Positions 17,101-38,100 of a stretch of DNA of 64,000 nucleotides are shown one piece after another (position 1 is the first letter of the stretch; each line of letters opens with the position of its first letter). Position numbers: made by a program. Source of the DNA: Octopus vulgaris (taxonomy: Eukaryota); the NCBI GenBank assembly GCA_951406725.2, contig OX597842.1:16492001-16556000 (forward strand), written 5' to 3'.

Positions 17101-20100
17101 GCATGGTGAAATAGCTTATTGAAGAGGGGGGTTCAAAGAGTAGACACCTATAATGGTGGTGGGAGAAACGGCATCCGGTATAGTTGGAGCAAATATAGAG
17201 ATATCCGGTATTGGTGGTGGGGGTGGGTAGGGCGGGCGCGCCGCGAAGAATCGGCAGCCAATTTCTAATCAGCCCTGTAAGGGAGATAGATCTTAATATC
17301 TATAACGATAACTAGTGAATTATACAGAATATGCAAAAACGAGGCGAGGCTGAAATAGTAAACAGAGTGGCGACTAGGGGGATCAGAATAATAATAATTA
17401 ATAAATAATAATAATAAATAGAGATACGGATGAATTAAAGTTCAAAGATTTCTTATCTTGAGATCACTTCGTTTACGGACAGACTTGGCAAAAGGAATTC
17501 GGAATCAAGAATGAGGCAGTTTACTAGCTTAAGTATGCATAGCCATGGCGGGTGGTAGGAAGAGAGGAGTCCAGACAGACGACAATGTAAAAAGAGGGGG
17601 AGAGAAGGGAAGAGAAAAACCCCGCGAAGAATCGGCAGCCAATTTCTAATCAGCCCTGTAAGGGAGATAGATCTTAATATCTATAACGATAGCTAGTGAA
17701 TTATACAGAATATGCAAAAACGAGGCGAGGCTGAAATAGTAAACAGAGTGGCGACTAGGGGGATCAGAATAATAATAATTAATAAATAATAATAATAAAT
17801 AGAGATACGGATGAATTAAAGTTCAAAGATTTCTTATCTTGAGATCACTTCGTTTACGGACAGACTTGGCAAAAGGAATTCGGAATCAAGAATGAGGCAG
17901 TTTACTAGCTTAAGTATGCATAGCCATGGCGGGTGGTAGGAAGAGAGGAGTCCAGACAGACGACAATGTAAAAAGAGGGGGAGAGAAGGGAAGAGAAAAA
18001 CCCCGCGAAGAATCGGCAGCCAATTTCTAATCAGCCCTGTAAGGGAGATAGATCTTAATATCTATAACGATAGCTAGTCATGAATTGATAAACAGACAGT
18101 TAATAGCTATAAAATTTTTTCAATTCTCAGTTATTTTAGCCAAAAGATGTAGCAGAATTTTGAAAAGACTCTGTTAAACCAATGACAATGATGATAATAT
18201 ATAAAAAATATGGATATAAATTCTTTAAAATCCAACTATGCCAATGCAGTCAGTGAAAGTTTTCTAACAGGGCTGCTGAACAGAATAATTTCTCTTCTTC
18301 TTGAGAGAGTTGTAGCCGAAGACAGAGAGTCCGACAAGGATTGCAGCAATGATTACGACAGCAATGATTACGACAGCAATGATTCCGAAAATCTCAAGTG
18401 TACTGTAGGGTCTTGATCCATCATCTTCAGTTTTCGGATCTGCAATTGATGAACAATAAAATATACAGCTACATTTATATATTTGTTTTACAAGAATTTT
18501 GATGTGAAATCGTGTGTTGAAACAGATATTGTTGTATTTCGGAATGGTCATTTTGCCAGTTTAGCCAATAATGACTTACCGTTAGTAAGGAGATACACAA
18601 ATAAGAAAGAAGAAAGCAAAGGACCACTGATGAGGTCACAGGAGTGTGAGGAAAGAACTCTGGCTGAAATAAGATAAAGATTAATGTAAAAAATAAATAA
18701 CACTGAAGCAAAATAACACCAAATATATAGTGCGTGTGTTTTTATTGGCTAAACTGGCAAAATGATCATTCCTAAATACAAAAATATATAGCCTTTGTTT
18801 TCAATAAAAAATAGTAATATCTCCCAAGCTTGACCGTTTTCATATTAACCTATTAAAAAATACTTTCGTTTCTATTATACAAATTCCAGTTTAAAGTGAT
18901 CTAAAGGAAAAGTCCCCATGAAAATTTCCAGTAACACTATGTTGCACACATTAGCTTGGTAATGACAAGGTTATTTTACTAAAATCTTCATAATTTTCAA
19001 AATTTATTCATAAGGTCGGTCGGTCGGAACACCCTTCAGTCACAACACAGACCATGGGATTGCACCTAGAATGTTACCTTCCTAGTCGCAAGTCTGGGCA
19101 AGGTTGTTTGTGGAAAACTAGCAGTTGCCCATGCATACCTGCCTCTCCTCTCCACACCACTGATGTTATCCAAGGGAAAGGCAAAGGGGCCGATACAGCT
19201 TCGCACCAGTGACGTTGCAACTCATTTCTACAGCTGAGTGAATTGGAGCAACGTGGAATAAAGTGTCTCGCTCAAGGACACAACATGCAGCCTGGTCCGG
19301 GATTCAAGCTCACAACCTCACGATCGTAAGCTCGATGCTCTAACCGCTGAGCCATGCACCTTCATACAAAAGCAATGTATTTCAACAGAAATATGGTAAG
19401 GAATAGGTTAACACACACCAGTATCCGAGAGGAGTATATTTAAAAGATTAGCTAATCCCCTTCAGATCAGTTCATCATTTAGAAGGGTTATATAGGATAT
19501 GCAAAGTGGATTGACTTTCTTATTCTAGCACAGAAATGCAAGGTCAACAGATCAGTCTATGATTTAGAAGGGTTATATAGGATATGCAAAGGGGTTTGAC
19601 TTTCTTATTCTAGCACAGAAATGCAAGGTCAACAGATCAGTCTATTATTTAGAAGGGTTATATAGGATATGCAAAGGGGTTTGACTTTCTTATTCTAGCA
19701 CAGAAATGCAAGGTCAACAGATCAGTCTATTATTTAGAAGGGTTATATAGGATATGCAAAAGGGATTGACTTTCTTATTCTAGCACAGAAATGCAAGGTC
19801 AACAGATCAGTCCATGCTTTAGAAGGGTTATATAGGATATGCAAAGGGGATTGACTTCGTTATTCTAGCACAGAAATGCAAGGTCAACAGATCAGTCCGT
19901 GATTTAGAAGGGTTATATAGGATATGCAAAGGGGTTTAACTTTCTCATTCTAGCACAGAAATGCAAGGTCAACAGATCAGTCCATGATTTAGAAGGGTTA
20001 TATAGGATATGCAAAGGGGATTGACTTCGTTATTCTAGCACAGAAATGTAAGGTCAACAGTTCAGTCTATGATTTAGAAGGGTTATATAGGATATGCAAA

Positions 20101-35100: not shown

Positions 35101-38100
35101 AGTTGGATTGTGGTGGAAAATCAAAAATGTTCCAAAATTTTCTTCCATAAAATGCATCATTTCTAAAGCTCTGCTAAAAACAAAATTGGAAAAATCCCTA
35201 CTGAAACAAAGAAAATCCACCTTACGTGAGTGACCTATTCCAGACCTCTGTGCACTTGAGTAAGATTGCCTTAACAAAAATATCCTACCCCACTTATTTT
35301 AACCTCTCAGCACCTGGTATAAAGCCACCACCTTCACTGCTATGCTCTTCGGTCGGGGCTTTTTCCTTCCGCTTCCTTTGTCTTTATTGTTACTAGGCGA
35401 CCTACTAGTGTTGGTGCCTGGCTCTAGTCTGATCTGGCAGAGTTTCTATAGCTGTTTGCCCTTCCTAAACACCAACCACTCCGTGAGTGTAGTGGATGCT
35501 TTTTATGTGCCAGGGGAGGCTCGCAACGGCCACGATCAGTTGGTGGTTTTTACGTGCCACCGACATGGAAGCCAGTCAAGGCGGGGCTGGCATCGGCCAC
35601 GTACAGATGGTGCTTTTTACATGCCACCAGCACAAGTGCCATAAGTGATGATGACAAACATCATAACCACAATCCTATTAAGAACGACTGTAATAATCGC
35701 AGCTACATGGTAACCAAATGAGTGGTGGTGCAATGAAGAAAAGCAGCCACTACATGTGGTAAAGTGGTGGGTGCTAGGAGGGCCATGAAGCAATAGAAGG
35801 CTTGCCAATGCATGGAATGGAGTTCACTACAATGCTGTGGCTTGTTGGATCCATAGCAGAATTGAAGGTGTCAGTCCTATATGGACCCCCACAAACCATC
35901 ATGACCCTGGTCGAAAACCACTGTTGCAGTACATTCCCTGATGTGCATTTTTGGCTCTTTAGCCTTTCTCAAAGGTCAAATTAAAAATTTAAAGAAATCA
36001 AAAGTCAAAAGATTGGCTAAAAGTTATGAGTTAAGGGAAAGAAATAGAAGACAGAATTGAAAAGGTAATGTCTAGGAGAGAAAAGGTTTGTTAATCCACT
36101 TACCAATTTCGGTGATTTCCTTAGGATACGTATTTGTGAAAACTGTAAAAAATGAAAACAAAAACGTTTGATTTTAAGATGATATAATTCAAAATAATGT
36201 GAATAAAAGAACATTATATTTCACAGTAATCTGATTGCTAAAGGATTAAGCCAGCCATATCTGTTTTATGTTTGAACTAGCCACATCCACCCTCTCACAC
36301 CTACCCTACAATGTCAGTCTAAAAATAAACAAGTCTAAAAATAAACAATCACATCATCAAAATGTCAAAACTACAAGATAATGAATGATTAATTCAAAAA
36401 CCAGGAGGGAGGAAGTAGGTAGCTTAATGTGGGTGTGTTGACCCAAGGAGGGGTAAGAAGAGATAGCCAGATGAGGAAGATGGAGGTAGGGTGATCAGGG
36501 TATTGAAAGAAGTAGAAGTGGAAAATTGGGAGATGAGTGGGAGGTGTGAGAGGAAAAGTATTTTCAAGGGTGGTCATTGTTGGGTATGACAATAGATGTT
36601 AATAGTTAGGGATGGTGGCACTATAGAACTAAGGGAAATTGGAAAGGTGGAAGATGGGAGAGGCGAGTATTAAAGGGAGAGAAAGGGTCCACTTACAGAT
36701 GCTAGTAGTGTAATAAAGGAGAAATCTGAAAGATGAAGATGGGTCGGCGGCACATCAAAGTACAGAGGTATGTAGACATGTATGAGTAAATAGAGGGAGT
36801 TGGTAGCAACAGTAGGAGTAGGTAGTACTAAGTGGTTTGGTTCTACTTGAAGAAGAAGATCAGATAAGAATTCAAAGTGTGAGGACGGGGTGGTTGTAAA
36901 GATGTATGTGCTGGGTAGCAGGAATGTGCAAAGGTAATCTTTAAAAATATTTAGAATGGGGGAGGTGGTAATAGTGGAAGTGATATGTTGTTAGTACAAC
37001 AAAGTTGTAACTTAAGGTTAATCATAAAGAATTACATAGATTTGACATAATAGGCAAACAAGGACTAGGTTCTGTGTTTACATGAGAGGATTACATCTGA
37101 AAATTTATTAAATAATTAGGGGTTGTGGTTTTGAAAGATAGTGGATGATTCTCATACACAGTGCCAAGATTAGTGTTGAAAGGGGTGGGTGGGTGTGAGG
37201 GCTCACTGTTAATTAACCAGGGTAGAATATAGGGAATGTTTTGGGACCTGAGGTTTTGTATACAATTTGTTAATGAGGTAGTTAATTTATAAGTTGGATT
37301 GTGGTGGAAAATCAAAAATGTTCCAAAATTTTCTTCCATAAAATGCATCATTTCTAAAGCTCAGCTCAAAACAAAATTGGAAAAATCCCTACTGAAACAA
37401 AGAAAATCCACCTTACGTGAGTGACCTATTCCAGACCTCTGTGCACTTGAGTAAGTTTGCCTTAACGAAAATAAGTTATGGAAAAAATAAAATAAAATAA
37501 AAATAAAACTTACCAGCACATGTCATTAAGAGTAAGAGGACCAACTTGAAAAGGTCCATCATCTGAAAAAATAATTTTCAAAAGCTGTAAGATAACAAAG
37601 CTTATAGCCCAGGGTCCGCTGCCTGTCAGGCTGAGAAAAACAAACGGTCACAATATCATCAGTCACTCTTTAATAGATTTATGGTCGAGACTCTGGCAGT
37701 GGAGATCTTATTCTTAACTATTTCAAATACTATATATTTCTTTACTACCCACAAGGGGCTAAACACAGAGGGGACAAACAAGGACAGACAAACAGATTAA
37801 GTTGATTACATTAACCCCAGTGCGTAACTGGTACTTAATTTATCGACCTTGAAAGGATGAAAGGCAAAGTCGACCTCAGTGGCATTTGAACTCAGAACAT
37901 ACCGGCAGACGAAATACGGCTACGCATTTCGCCCGGCGTGCTAACGTTTCTGCCGGCTCACCCTACTCGTGAAACTGATGTATCCAGATATGGTGAGAGG
38001 TCAGACGCAACACACATCCAAGCCTCAAATCTGAAGTTGGTGCCAGAATATCAAGAAATGGACAAACTAATTATTAAGTAAACATATAGGCGCAGGAGTG

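What the first reader, a model, noticed from the sequence alone, without database searches (positions are those of the whole stretch)
18264..37562. Cassette-type Ig-like receptor locus: several leader/micro-exon/Ig modules, one shared TM exon
Seen: the minus-strand order is leader A, 3 micro-exons, Ig A, leader B, 1 micro-exon, Ig B, single TM/tail exon. Every internal junction is phase 1 with intact GT/AG. Ig A has no TM exon of its own, since leader B starts ~310 bp after its donor. Leader B cannot be read in frame after Ig A because it is 49 nt. Inference: module A must splice onto the shared TM exon (variable/constant layout, as known for vertebrate clustered protocadherins and UGT1A) or onto micro-exon 28068/Ig B to give a two-domain receptor. 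I do not recognise the protein family. It may be an undescribed cephalopod recognition receptor (immune, allo- or gamete recognition).
Basis: partly seen in the sequence, partly recalled or inferred. Interest (0 to 1): 0.85.

Follow-up and report, generated by a model that had tools for sequence, protein, structure and literature searches.

The report
Duplicated receptor gene with hypervariable exons
A mollusc-type gene for a small cell-surface protein has had its front half copied in tandem, and its coding exons differ far more between copies than the surrounding introns, which hints at selection for diversity but not at a dedicated cassette system.

Summary
The exon anatomy is real. On the minus strand lie leader A, three 39-nt micro-exons, a 249-nt domain exon A, leader B, one micro-exon, domain exon B and one TM/tail exon. 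All have AG/GT and phase 1. The two modules come from one tandem duplication of about 5.6 kb, whose junction lies 5 nt upstream of leader B's ATG. A 2.19-kb intronic unit was then amplified, giving the three micro-exons. Module B therefore inherited no promoter and module A no TM exon: I read this as one transcription unit, not a Pcdh/UGT1A-type cassette. A third, inverted paralogue with its own TM exon lies at 537-4902. Coding exons diverged much more than their flanks: domain exon 41/249 vs 23/484, leader 25/49 vs 25/291, first micro-exon 8/39 vs 17/581. The divergent patches end at the predicted splice sites. This supports real, fast-diversifying exons. The Ig fold is unproven: no Pfam or PDB match, poor AlphaFold models, and only language-model likeness to Ig clusters. 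No RNA evidence was available, and the spliced model was not searched.

The parts
37514..37562 (-). Leader exon A. 49 nt from the ATG, hydrophobic and signal-peptide-like, ends in phase 1, donor GTAAGT.
   Evidence: Maximum Kyte-Doolittle mean over 9 aa is 2.99. A TATAAG lies at 37606-37601, read.
36104..36142 (-). Micro-exon in repeat unit U4. 39 nt, phase 1-1. This is the divergent copy.
   Evidence: It differs from U1 at 8/39 positions, against 17/581 in the flanks (p=6e-5).
33916..33954 (-). Micro-exon in repeat unit U3. 39 nt, phase 1-1.
31711..31749 (-). Micro-exon in repeat unit U2. 39 nt, identical to micro-exon B.
29761..30009 (-). Domain exon A. 249 nt, phase 1-1, 83 codons, all-beta and possibly Ig-like. 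No N-glycosylation sequon.
29406..29454 (-). Leader exon B. The ATG is at 29451, giving 46 coding nt. It is 49 nt when counted from the AG at 29456-29455. Donor is GTAAGT. A pyrimidine tract plus AG lies upstream, so it could also be read as a frame-shifting internal exon.
28030..28068 (-). Micro-exon B (repeat unit U1). 39 nt, phase 1-1.
24151..24399 (-). Domain exon B. 249 nt, phase 1-1. 66-67 % amino-acid identity to A. Two N-x-S/T sequons.
18264..18439 (-). Terminal exon. It encodes an acidic juxtamembrane stretch, a hydrophobic span of about 27 aa, KKKR, a 12-aa tail and the stop codon.
   Evidence: Kyte-Doolittle mean over 19 aa is 3.52.
26778..29405 (-). Intronic unit U1 of module B. 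It carries micro-exon B and SINE-like repeats.
   Evidence: Self-BLAST.
30474..37513 (-). Three tandem copies of the intronic unit in module A: U2 30474-33093, U3 33228-35282, U4 35417-37513. Period is 2189 nt and copies are 92-95 % alike. The unit junctions carry no leader relic.
29457..30189 (-). Duplicated segment around domain exon A, matching 23846-24579 around domain exon B. Its downstream end at 29457 is the tandem-duplication junction.
537..647 (+). Paralogue C, short version of the domain exon. 111 nt, phase 1-1. It lacks 138 nt in frame and the remainder is strongly diverged. Flanks are about 95 % identical to A and B.
4757..4902 (+). Paralogue C, its own TM/tail exon. The upstream intron is 200/201 identical to that of the A/B gene, but the TM-coding part is radically different.

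Best explanation
This is one lineage-specific gene, with no family in Pfam. It encodes a small type I membrane protein with this layout: signal peptide, 13-residue stalk from a symmetric micro-exon, an 83-codon all-beta (possibly Ig-like) ectodomain on one phase-1/phase-1 exon, a TM helix and a 12-residue tail.

Shown:
- The 5' part of the gene, from 5 nt before the ATG to about 305 nt past the domain exon (about 5.6 kb), was duplicated in tandem.
- In the upstream copy, a 2.19-kb intronic unit carrying the micro-exon was then amplified to three copies.
- An inverted paralogue with its own TM exon lies 13 kb away.

Inferred:
- The only inherited promoter lies upstream of leader A, and the only terminal exon lies downstream of module B. 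The locus is therefore a single transcription unit.
- All junctions are phase 1. The productive mRNAs from that promoter would be A -> micro B -> domain B -> TM (a two-domain protein, the default if all well-defined internal exons are used) and/or A -> TM. Leader B has to be skipped in either case.

Shown: coding exons, and only these, have diverged several-fold faster than their introns, with a transversion-rich spectrum and no third-position excess.

Inferred: the ectodomain, signal and TM segments are being diversified. The cause is either positive selection or exchange of exon segments among family members, as in surface recognition or rapidly co-evolving proteins.
For: - **Exon anatomy and phases:**
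- **Duplication map:** self-BLAST. The junction is at 29457/29456, where homology to the flank downstream of domain exon B stops and homology to leader A starts. The unit junctions carry no leader.
- **No shared sequence upstream of the two leaders:**
- **Exon versus flank differences.**
  - Domain exon 41/249 vs 23/484 (p=3e-7). Non-synonymous sites 34/198 vs the flanks (p=5e-7).
  - Leader 25/49 vs 25/291 (p=2e-11).
  - U4 micro-exon 8/39 vs 17/581.
  - TM exon, A/B gene vs C: 35 mismatches plus 28 gap columns in 176, beside an intron with 1/201.
- **Both A and B changed.** With C as third sequence, over 55 alignable exon-end nt there are A-unique 5 and B-unique 5. Over 300 flank columns there are A-unique 7 and B-unique 2.
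- **Substitution spectrum.** Transitions:transversions are 13:28 in the domain exon and 69:47 in non-coding sequence (p=0.003). Differences by codon position are 16/12/12.
- **Membrane topology.** Hydrophobic leaders, and a TM span followed by KKKR.
- **Protein-likeness.** ESM-Atlas recognition values of 2691 and 2864 are above the 2300 that 91 % of known-family proteins reach. The nearest clusters are molluscan hypothetical proteins at 0.94.
Against: - There is no RNA evidence of any kind; splicing and promoter use are inferred.
- Leader B keeps its ATG, hydrophobic frame and perfect donor although it differs from leader A at 25/49 positions. It is equally expected if A is the derived copy and B a young relic.
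- Leader B is preceded by a good pyrimidine tract and an AG. Transcripts from promoter A might include it, shift frame and stop in micro-exon B.
- No AATAAA or ATTAAA lies within 1 kb after the TM stop.
- omega within the domain exon is only 1.28, and synonymous sites are also raised (7/48 vs flanks, p=0.013). Selection on the protein alone does not explain the pattern.
- The open frame of the domain exon by itself is weak evidence: 17 % of random 41-substitution versions stay open.
Confidence: 0.5

Rival explanations
1. One reading: a variable/constant layout. Each module has its own transcription start, and its domain exon splices to the one shared TM exon, giving alternative single-domain receptors.
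For: There are two complete modules, each with an ATG, a hydrophobic leader and phase-1 junctions, and a single TM exon. Leader B is intact despite 25/49 differences from leader A. Both domain exons show accelerated change.
Against: The duplication junction lies 5 nt before leader B's ATG, so no promoter was inherited. The sequence before leader B is simply the intron that follows a domain exon: it differs at 15/304 positions from the copy after domain exon B, the same as other flanks. There is no shared upstream motif. There are only two modules. The modules contain internal acceptors, so a transcript from A would by default take in B's exons. This is unlike Pcdh variable exons (passages read).
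Confidence: 0.2
2. Module A is a dead end. Transcripts from promoter A either include leader B as a 49-nt frame-shifting exon, which gives an early stop and a truncated secreted product or decay, or they fail to reach the TM exon. Only one module makes the membrane protein.
For: A pyrimidine tract plus AG lies before leader B and a GTAAGT after it. Micro-exon B in the shifted frame reads TGA. Paralogue C shows that family members can decay: 138 nt are missing from its domain exon.
Against: The U4 micro-exon and domain exon A carry an excess of changes over their flanks, and 7 of the 8 changes in U4 alter the residue (my own reading of the codons printed). This is not expected of untranslated DNA. 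All module A frames and splice sites are intact.
Confidence: 0.15
3. This is not a gene. The open frames and splice-like sites are chance features of a repeat-rich, recently duplicated region.
For: The region is full of SINE-like repeats, satellites and a LINE. There is no Pfam or PDB match. An open 249-nt frame survives 41 random changes 17 % of the time.
Against: Neutral DNA cannot make exons diverge 3-6 times faster than adjacent sequence with breaks exactly at AG and GT, in four different exon types. The signal-like leader, symmetric phases and a TM span followed by a basic stop-transfer form a coherent protein. ESM recognition values are above the threshold for real proteins.
Confidence: 0.05

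Closest known systems
[quoted passage not shown]
   Same: Tandem, related 5' units each start with a signal peptide and lie upstream of one shared 3' exon. The units themselves are diverging adaptively (UGT1: title and start of abstract of PMC1885805, listing).
   Different: In Pcdh, each variable unit is a single large exon with its own promoter. That exon already contains the TM segment, and the constant exons are cytoplasmic (passages read in PMC7688460). Here there are two units only. Each has 3-5 exons with internal acceptors, the TM lies in the shared exon, and the downstream unit has no inherited or shared promoter sequence.
Accelerated segment switch in exons (ASSET) and accelerated evolution of venom multigene families
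   Same: Introns of paralogues are highly similar, while segments of the exons are 'distinctly different' (abstract of PMC2474615; start of abstract of PMC2711939, listing). The same picture appears here in the leader, micro-exon, domain and TM exons.
   Different: Those are secreted toxins. Here the product is a putative membrane protein, and even the signal and TM segments are switched. Only three copies could be compared.
Hydractinia Alr allorecognition genes (unusual IgSF)
   Same: They are invertebrate, clustered, highly diverse type I surface proteins. Their domains lack the diagnostic Ig sequence motifs and escape ordinary motif searches (abstract of PMC9546547).
   Different: The Alr domains were shown to be V-set or I-set by accurate structure prediction, and several have ITAM or ITIM tails. 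Here the models are poor (pLDDT 38.9 and 56.8). Foldseek gives nothing. The 12-residue tail has no such motif by direct reading.
Internal tandem duplication of domain exons in IgSF and other mosaic proteins (general knowledge, recalled)
   Same: Symmetric phase-1 exons allow a duplicated domain exon to be added in frame. This is my preferred reading of module A plus module B.
   Different: Here the duplication also copied the start-codon exon. That leaves a promoter-less leader inside the gene which must be skipped.
Schistosome micro-exon genes (recalled, no call)
   Same: Short symmetric exons could be included in varying numbers.
   Different: Only 1-3 micro-exons are present. They are identical or near-identical copies from a recent intronic tandem repeat, and most of the coding sequence is not in micro-exons.

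Membership tests
Immunoglobulin superfamily domain | Significant match to an Ig-clan profile (V-set, I-set, C1/C2-set, ig) | tested here: not met
   Pfam hmmscan at E<=10 gives 0 families for both domain exons and for the short exon C. phmmer/hmmsearch against PDB sequences gives only chance hits at E>=0.12, none an Ig domain.
Immunoglobulin superfamily domain | Two-sheet beta-sandwich fold of 7-9 strands | tested here: inconclusive
   The AlphaFold2 model of B with A as alignment has pLDDT 38.9. The model of A alone has pLDDT 56.8, with four strands (3-12, 21-30, 42-47, 50-55) and an unmodelled C-terminal third. Foldseek against PDB gives 0 matches at E<=0.001. The exon was folded alone; the joined ectodomain was not folded.
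Immunoglobulin superfamily domain | Cys(B strand) ... Trp(C strand) ... Cys(F strand) core with about 55-75 residues between the cysteines (recalled definition) | tested here: not met
   Read directly from the peptides. Cysteines are at 32, 36 and 62, plus 25 in B only, so the widest spacing is 37 residues. A Trp at 23 and a 'L-x-I-K-D-V-T-K' stretch resemble the C and E strand motifs, but only by eye.
Immunoglobulin superfamily domain | Domain carried by one exon bounded by phase-1 introns | tested here: met
   249-nt exons with AG/GT, phase 1 on both sides. This is typical of Ig domains but not specific to them.
Immunoglobulin superfamily domain | Language-model feature likeness to Ig families | tested here: inconclusive
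   For both exons, every named cluster among the listed hits is of the Ig clan (V-set, ig, I-set, C1-set) at 0.87-0.90. Shared features are 133-155 of 256, below the 170 that true members usually reach. The top hits (0.94; 185-186 shared) are unnamed molluscan clusters.
Variable-first-exon / constant-exon cluster (Pcdh alpha/gamma, UGT1A type) | Each variable unit has its own promoter | tested here: not met
   The duplication junction lies 5 nt before leader B's ATG. The two upstream regions share only words of 9 nt or less. Promoter activity itself was not testable.
Variable-first-exon / constant-exon cluster (Pcdh alpha/gamma, UGT1A type) | Each variable unit is a single first exon with a donor but no internal acceptor | tested here: not met
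   Module A has 5 exons and module B has 3. Both have strong internal acceptors.
Variable-first-exon / constant-exon cluster (Pcdh alpha/gamma, UGT1A type) | Shared downstream exon(s) used by all units | not testable with these tools
   The geometry fits: one TM exon lies downstream of two modules and the phases are compatible. Showing use of the exon needs cDNA.
Accelerated exon evolution / exon segment switching (ASSET-like) | Introns of paralogues conserved, exon segments radically different, boundaries within or at exons | tested here: met
   The tests are Fisher tests of exon against flank differences.
Type I single-pass membrane protein | N-terminal hydrophobic signal; one hydrophobic span of about 20 residues or more followed by basic residues | tested here: met
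   Leaders have Kyte-Doolittle means of 2.99 and 2.14 over 9 aa. The TM exon has 3.52 over 19 aa, followed by KKKR. No dedicated signal-peptide or TM predictor was available.

The most novel reading that the evidence does not exclude
The locus belongs to an undescribed molluscan (possibly cephalopod) family of hypervariable surface recognition receptors. Ectodomain, signal and TM segments would be diversified by exon-restricted segment exchange on a background of homogenised introns. Tandem modules would be chosen, by a start site acquired in front of leader B or by regulated skipping, for joining to a shared TM exon. That would be an invertebrate recognition-diversity system (immune, allo- or gamete recognition) with a multi-exon variable/constant layout.
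Probability: 0.12. Interest if true: 0.8.

Novelty: new variant of a known kind. Interest (0 to 1): 0.5.

Why it matters
If the exon-restricted hyperdivergence holds across more family members, this would be a surface-protein family under strong diversification in a mollusc. Few diversified recognition receptors are known in that group. In my two literature searches, none of the 30 papers listed (of 325 and 101 holding the terms) described one for cephalopods.

The locus is also a clean natural example of what happens when a tandem duplication copies the start-codon exon but not the promoter. The sharp exon/intron contrast gives a sequence-only way to find further members and to define their exons.

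As it stands, the finding is a well-supported gene model with an interesting evolutionary signature. It is not a demonstrated new mechanism.

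Tried and rejected
- **Pfam on each exon peptide.** Nothing for the domain exons. The TM exon gave 11 sub-threshold hits of the membrane-helix kind only.
- **PDB sequence searches.** Run with A, with B and with the two-row profile; only chance hits.
- **AlphaFold2, twice, and Foldseek against PDB.** The models are too poor to decide the fold, so the Foldseek list has no meaning.
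- **ESM Atlas, twice.** A lead only.
- **Rfam and tRNA scans of the window.** Nothing found.
- **Poly(A) signal search.**
  - No AATAAA or ATTAAA after either domain exon, so there is no support for a stand-alone secreted module A.
  - There is also none within 1 kb after the TM stop, so the test has little power.
- **Shared promoter motif before the two leaders.** None.
- **Leader relics at the junctions of the 2.19-kb units.** None.
- **RNA-editing-like A/G excess in exon differences.** Not seen: A/G accounts for 9 of 41.
- **A first leader comparison was 3 nt out of register.** One search gave 32/49. After this was corrected to 25/49.
- It was repeated correctly. The two small frames at 26359-26697 gave no Pfam hit, so I do not call them reverse transcriptase.
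- **Literature searches for a described cephalopod family of this kind.** No paper among the 15+15 listed describes one.

Full report
**What is there.**

| Exon | Coordinates | Length |
|---|---|---|
| Leader A | 37562-37514 | 49 nt |
| Micro-exon U4 | 36142-36104 | 39 nt |
| Micro-exon U3 | 33954-33916 | 39 nt |
| Micro-exon U2 | 31749-31711 | 39 nt |
| Domain exon A | 30009-29761 | 249 nt |
| Leader B | 29451-29406 | 46 nt from the ATG |
| Micro-exon B | 28068-28030 | 39 nt |
| Domain exon B | 24399-24151 | 249 nt |
| TM/tail exon | 18439-18264 | 176 nt, with stop |

- Every acceptor is a pyrimidine tract plus AG, and every donor is GTAAG. Every internal junction is phase 1.
Its donor GT is at 29405-29404. 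My first coordinates were 3 nt off; one search showed this and one search corrected it.
- A 49-nt insert after a phase-1 exon shifts the frame. Micro-exon B read in the shifted frame meets TGA.
- The window holds no N.
- tblastn with the TM exon finds only two TM-like exons in 64 kb, and none lies between domain exon A and leader B.

**How the layout arose.**
- Self-BLAST and alignments show a partial tandem duplication.
- The segment around domain exon A (29457-30189) matches the one around domain exon B (23846-24579).
- The homology of the A-side flank to the sequence downstream of domain exon B stops at 29457. From 29456 onward the sequence matches the start of leader A ('AGAT.ATGG').
- The duplicated unit therefore ran from about 5 nt before the start codon to about 305 nt past the domain exon. 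That is 5.6 kb in module B.
- Inside the first intron, a unit of 2189 nt carrying the micro-exon stands once in module B (within 26778-29405). It stands three times in module A (30474-33093, 33228-35282, 35417-37513), and the copies are 92-95 % alike.
- The unit junctions contain no leader relic. The 'three micro-exons' are thus copies of one exon.
- Module B's second intron carries an extra 2.2 kb that includes a 590-bp inverted repeat.

**A third copy.**
- On the plus strand at the start of the window lies an inverted paralogue, gene C.
- Its version of the domain exon is at 537-647 (111 nt, phase 1-1). It lacks 138 nt in frame and the rest is strongly changed.
- Its own TM/tail exon is at 4757-4902.
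- Its 5' exons would lie off the window.
- The intron between its two exons is collinear with that of the A/B gene, including an 85-bp satellite.
- 'One shared TM exon' therefore holds for modules A and B, not for the whole family.

**The most informative result: exons differ far more than introns.**

| Region compared | Differences in exon | Differences in flank or intron | Test |
|---|---|---|---|
| Domain exon, A vs B | 41/249 | 23/484 | Fisher p=3e-7 |
| Leader, A vs B, in register | 25/49 | 25/291 in the following intron | p=2e-11 |
| Micro-exon U4 vs U1 | 8/39 | 17/581 | p=6e-5 |
| TM exon, A/B gene vs C | 35 mismatches + 28 gap columns in 176 | 1/201 in the upstream intron | - |

- For the domain exon, Nei-Gojobori gives dN 0.19, dS 0.15 and omega 1.28.
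- Micro-exons U1, U2 and U3 differ from one another at only 0-2 of 39 positions.
- The 600 nt of intron before the TM exon are 96-100 % identical between C and the A/B gene.
- In each case the divergent patch starts right after the AG and stops at the GT or the stop codon.
- Exon differences are rich in transversions: 13 transitions to 28 transversions, against 69:47 in non-coding sequence (p=0.003).
- They are spread evenly over codon positions: 16/12/12 in the domain exon and 7/8/9 in the leader.
- With C as third sequence, 55 exon-end positions can be aligned. There, A-unique changes number 5 and B-unique 5. In 300 flank columns they number 7 and 2. Both domain exons have therefore changed fast.

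Neutral decay cannot produce this contrast, so these are real coding exons seen by selection or by a coding-specific process. Synonymous sites are also raised (7/48 vs the flanks, p=0.013). The leader is close to saturation beside an intron that differs at about 9 % of positions (25/291). Point substitution under positive selection alone is therefore not enough. Exchange of exon segments with unseen family members, or homogenisation of introns around old exon variants, fits better. I cannot separate these with three copies.

**What the protein is.** Exons were searched one by one.
- The leaders are hydrophobic.
- The terminal exon has an acidic stretch, a hydrophobic span of about 27 residues that contains an internal 15-nt tandem duplication (read), then KKKR and a 12-residue tail. 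This is a type I topology.
- Domain exon B has two N-x-S/T sequons and A has none (read).
- The domain exon has no Pfam family at E<=10 and no relative among PDB sequences.
- The AlphaFold2 models are poor: pLDDT 38.9 for B aligned with A, and 56.8 for A alone. The latter shows four strands and an unmodelled C-terminal third.
- Foldseek against PDB gives 0 matches at E<=0.001.
- The ESM Atlas gives recognition values of 2691 and 2864. Its nearest clusters are unnamed molluscan proteins of 109-116 aa at 0.92-0.94. All named neighbours belong to the Ig clan at 0.87-0.90.

'Ig-like' is thus a reasonable lead, helped by the phase-1/phase-1 single-exon domain. It fails the sequence tests and is undecided on fold.

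**How it most likely works.**
- The upstream copy of a tandem duplication keeps the old promoter. The downstream copy keeps the old 3' end.
- Only about 5 nt before leader B's ATG belong to the unit. The rest is ordinary intron from behind a domain exon: it differs at 15/304 positions from its twin, like the other flanks.
- The two upstream regions share nothing.
- I therefore take the locus as one transcription unit that starts before leader A. A TATAAG lies 39-44 nt before that ATG; reading it as a promoter element is inference only.
- With exon definition, the internal exons of module B would be taken in. That gives a two-domain protein with a 3x13-residue N-terminal stalk. Skipping them gives a one-domain form. 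Both are in frame.
- Leader B must be skipped. It has a good acceptor context, so it may act as a frame-shifting exon.

**Comparison with known systems.**
- In clustered protocadherins, each variable unit is a single exon with its own promoter, and that exon already contains the TM segment (passages read in PMC7688460). The present locus fails those two features.
- The exon/intron contrast matches what was named ASSET in snake three-finger toxin genes (abstract of PMC2474615; start of abstract of PMC2711939, listing).
- Hydractinia Alr genes show that Ig domains can escape motif searches (abstract of PMC9546547).
- My two searches for a described cephalopod family of this kind listed 15 papers each, of 325 and 101 holding the terms. 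None described one. This is not proof of absence.

**Limits.**
- Family size, donors of the switched segments, expression and the source organism therefore stayed unchecked.
- Supplements of papers were not consulted and do not bear on the claims made here.

Noticed in passing
window 40669-43495 (+): A non-LTR retrotransposon. The ORFs match Exo_endo_phos_2 (E=1.6e-7) and RVT_1 (E=1.3e-29), plus a PHD-like finger. The reading frame is broken between the pieces.
   Followed up: partly
window 1851-3742 (+) and 19463-20440: An 85-bp satellite, with 11.4 copies in the A/B gene and about 22 in gene C. It sits at the same place in the intron between domain exon and TM exon of both inverted paralogues.
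   Followed up: partly
window 17241-18078: A 381-bp unit repeated 2.2 times at 99 % identity, starting about 190 nt downstream of the TM exon stop. It interrupts the 3' flank that is otherwise shared with gene C.
   Followed up: no
window 24578-25168 and 25413-25991: An inverted repeat with arms of about 590 bp at 92.7 % identity, lying in module B's intron just upstream of domain exon B. It is part of a 2.2-kb stretch absent from module A.
   Followed up: no
window 7169-8321: A 96-bp satellite, about 12 copies at 96-97 % identity, giving long spurious ORFs on both strands.
   Followed up: no
window 24400-24596, 30010-30213, 336-536 and at least five other places (e.g. 5374-5766, 23202-23600, 38093-38497, 58465-58842, 62903-63317): A SINE-like repeat preceded by a TA/CA microsatellite. 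In all three gene copies it ends about 50 nt upstream of the domain-exon acceptor, so it was present before the duplications. ARAGORN and Rfam do not recognise it.
   Followed up: partly
window 29455-29480 (-): The duplication junction created a pyrimidine tract plus AG directly in front of leader B. This turns a start-codon exon into a potential 49-nt frame-shifting internal exon.
   Followed up: partly
window 18340-18390 (-): The TM-coding part of the A/B gene contains a 15-nt direct duplication (two full copies and a partial third) that lengthens the hydrophobic span. Gene C lacks it.
   Followed up: no
window 18464-19063 vs 4130-4756: Identity between the inverted paralogues rises to 96-100 % over the 600 nt of intron just before the TM exon, against 86-93 % further upstream. 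It then collapses inside the TM-coding part. This could be a gene-conversion tract or conserved splicing signals.
   Followed up: partly
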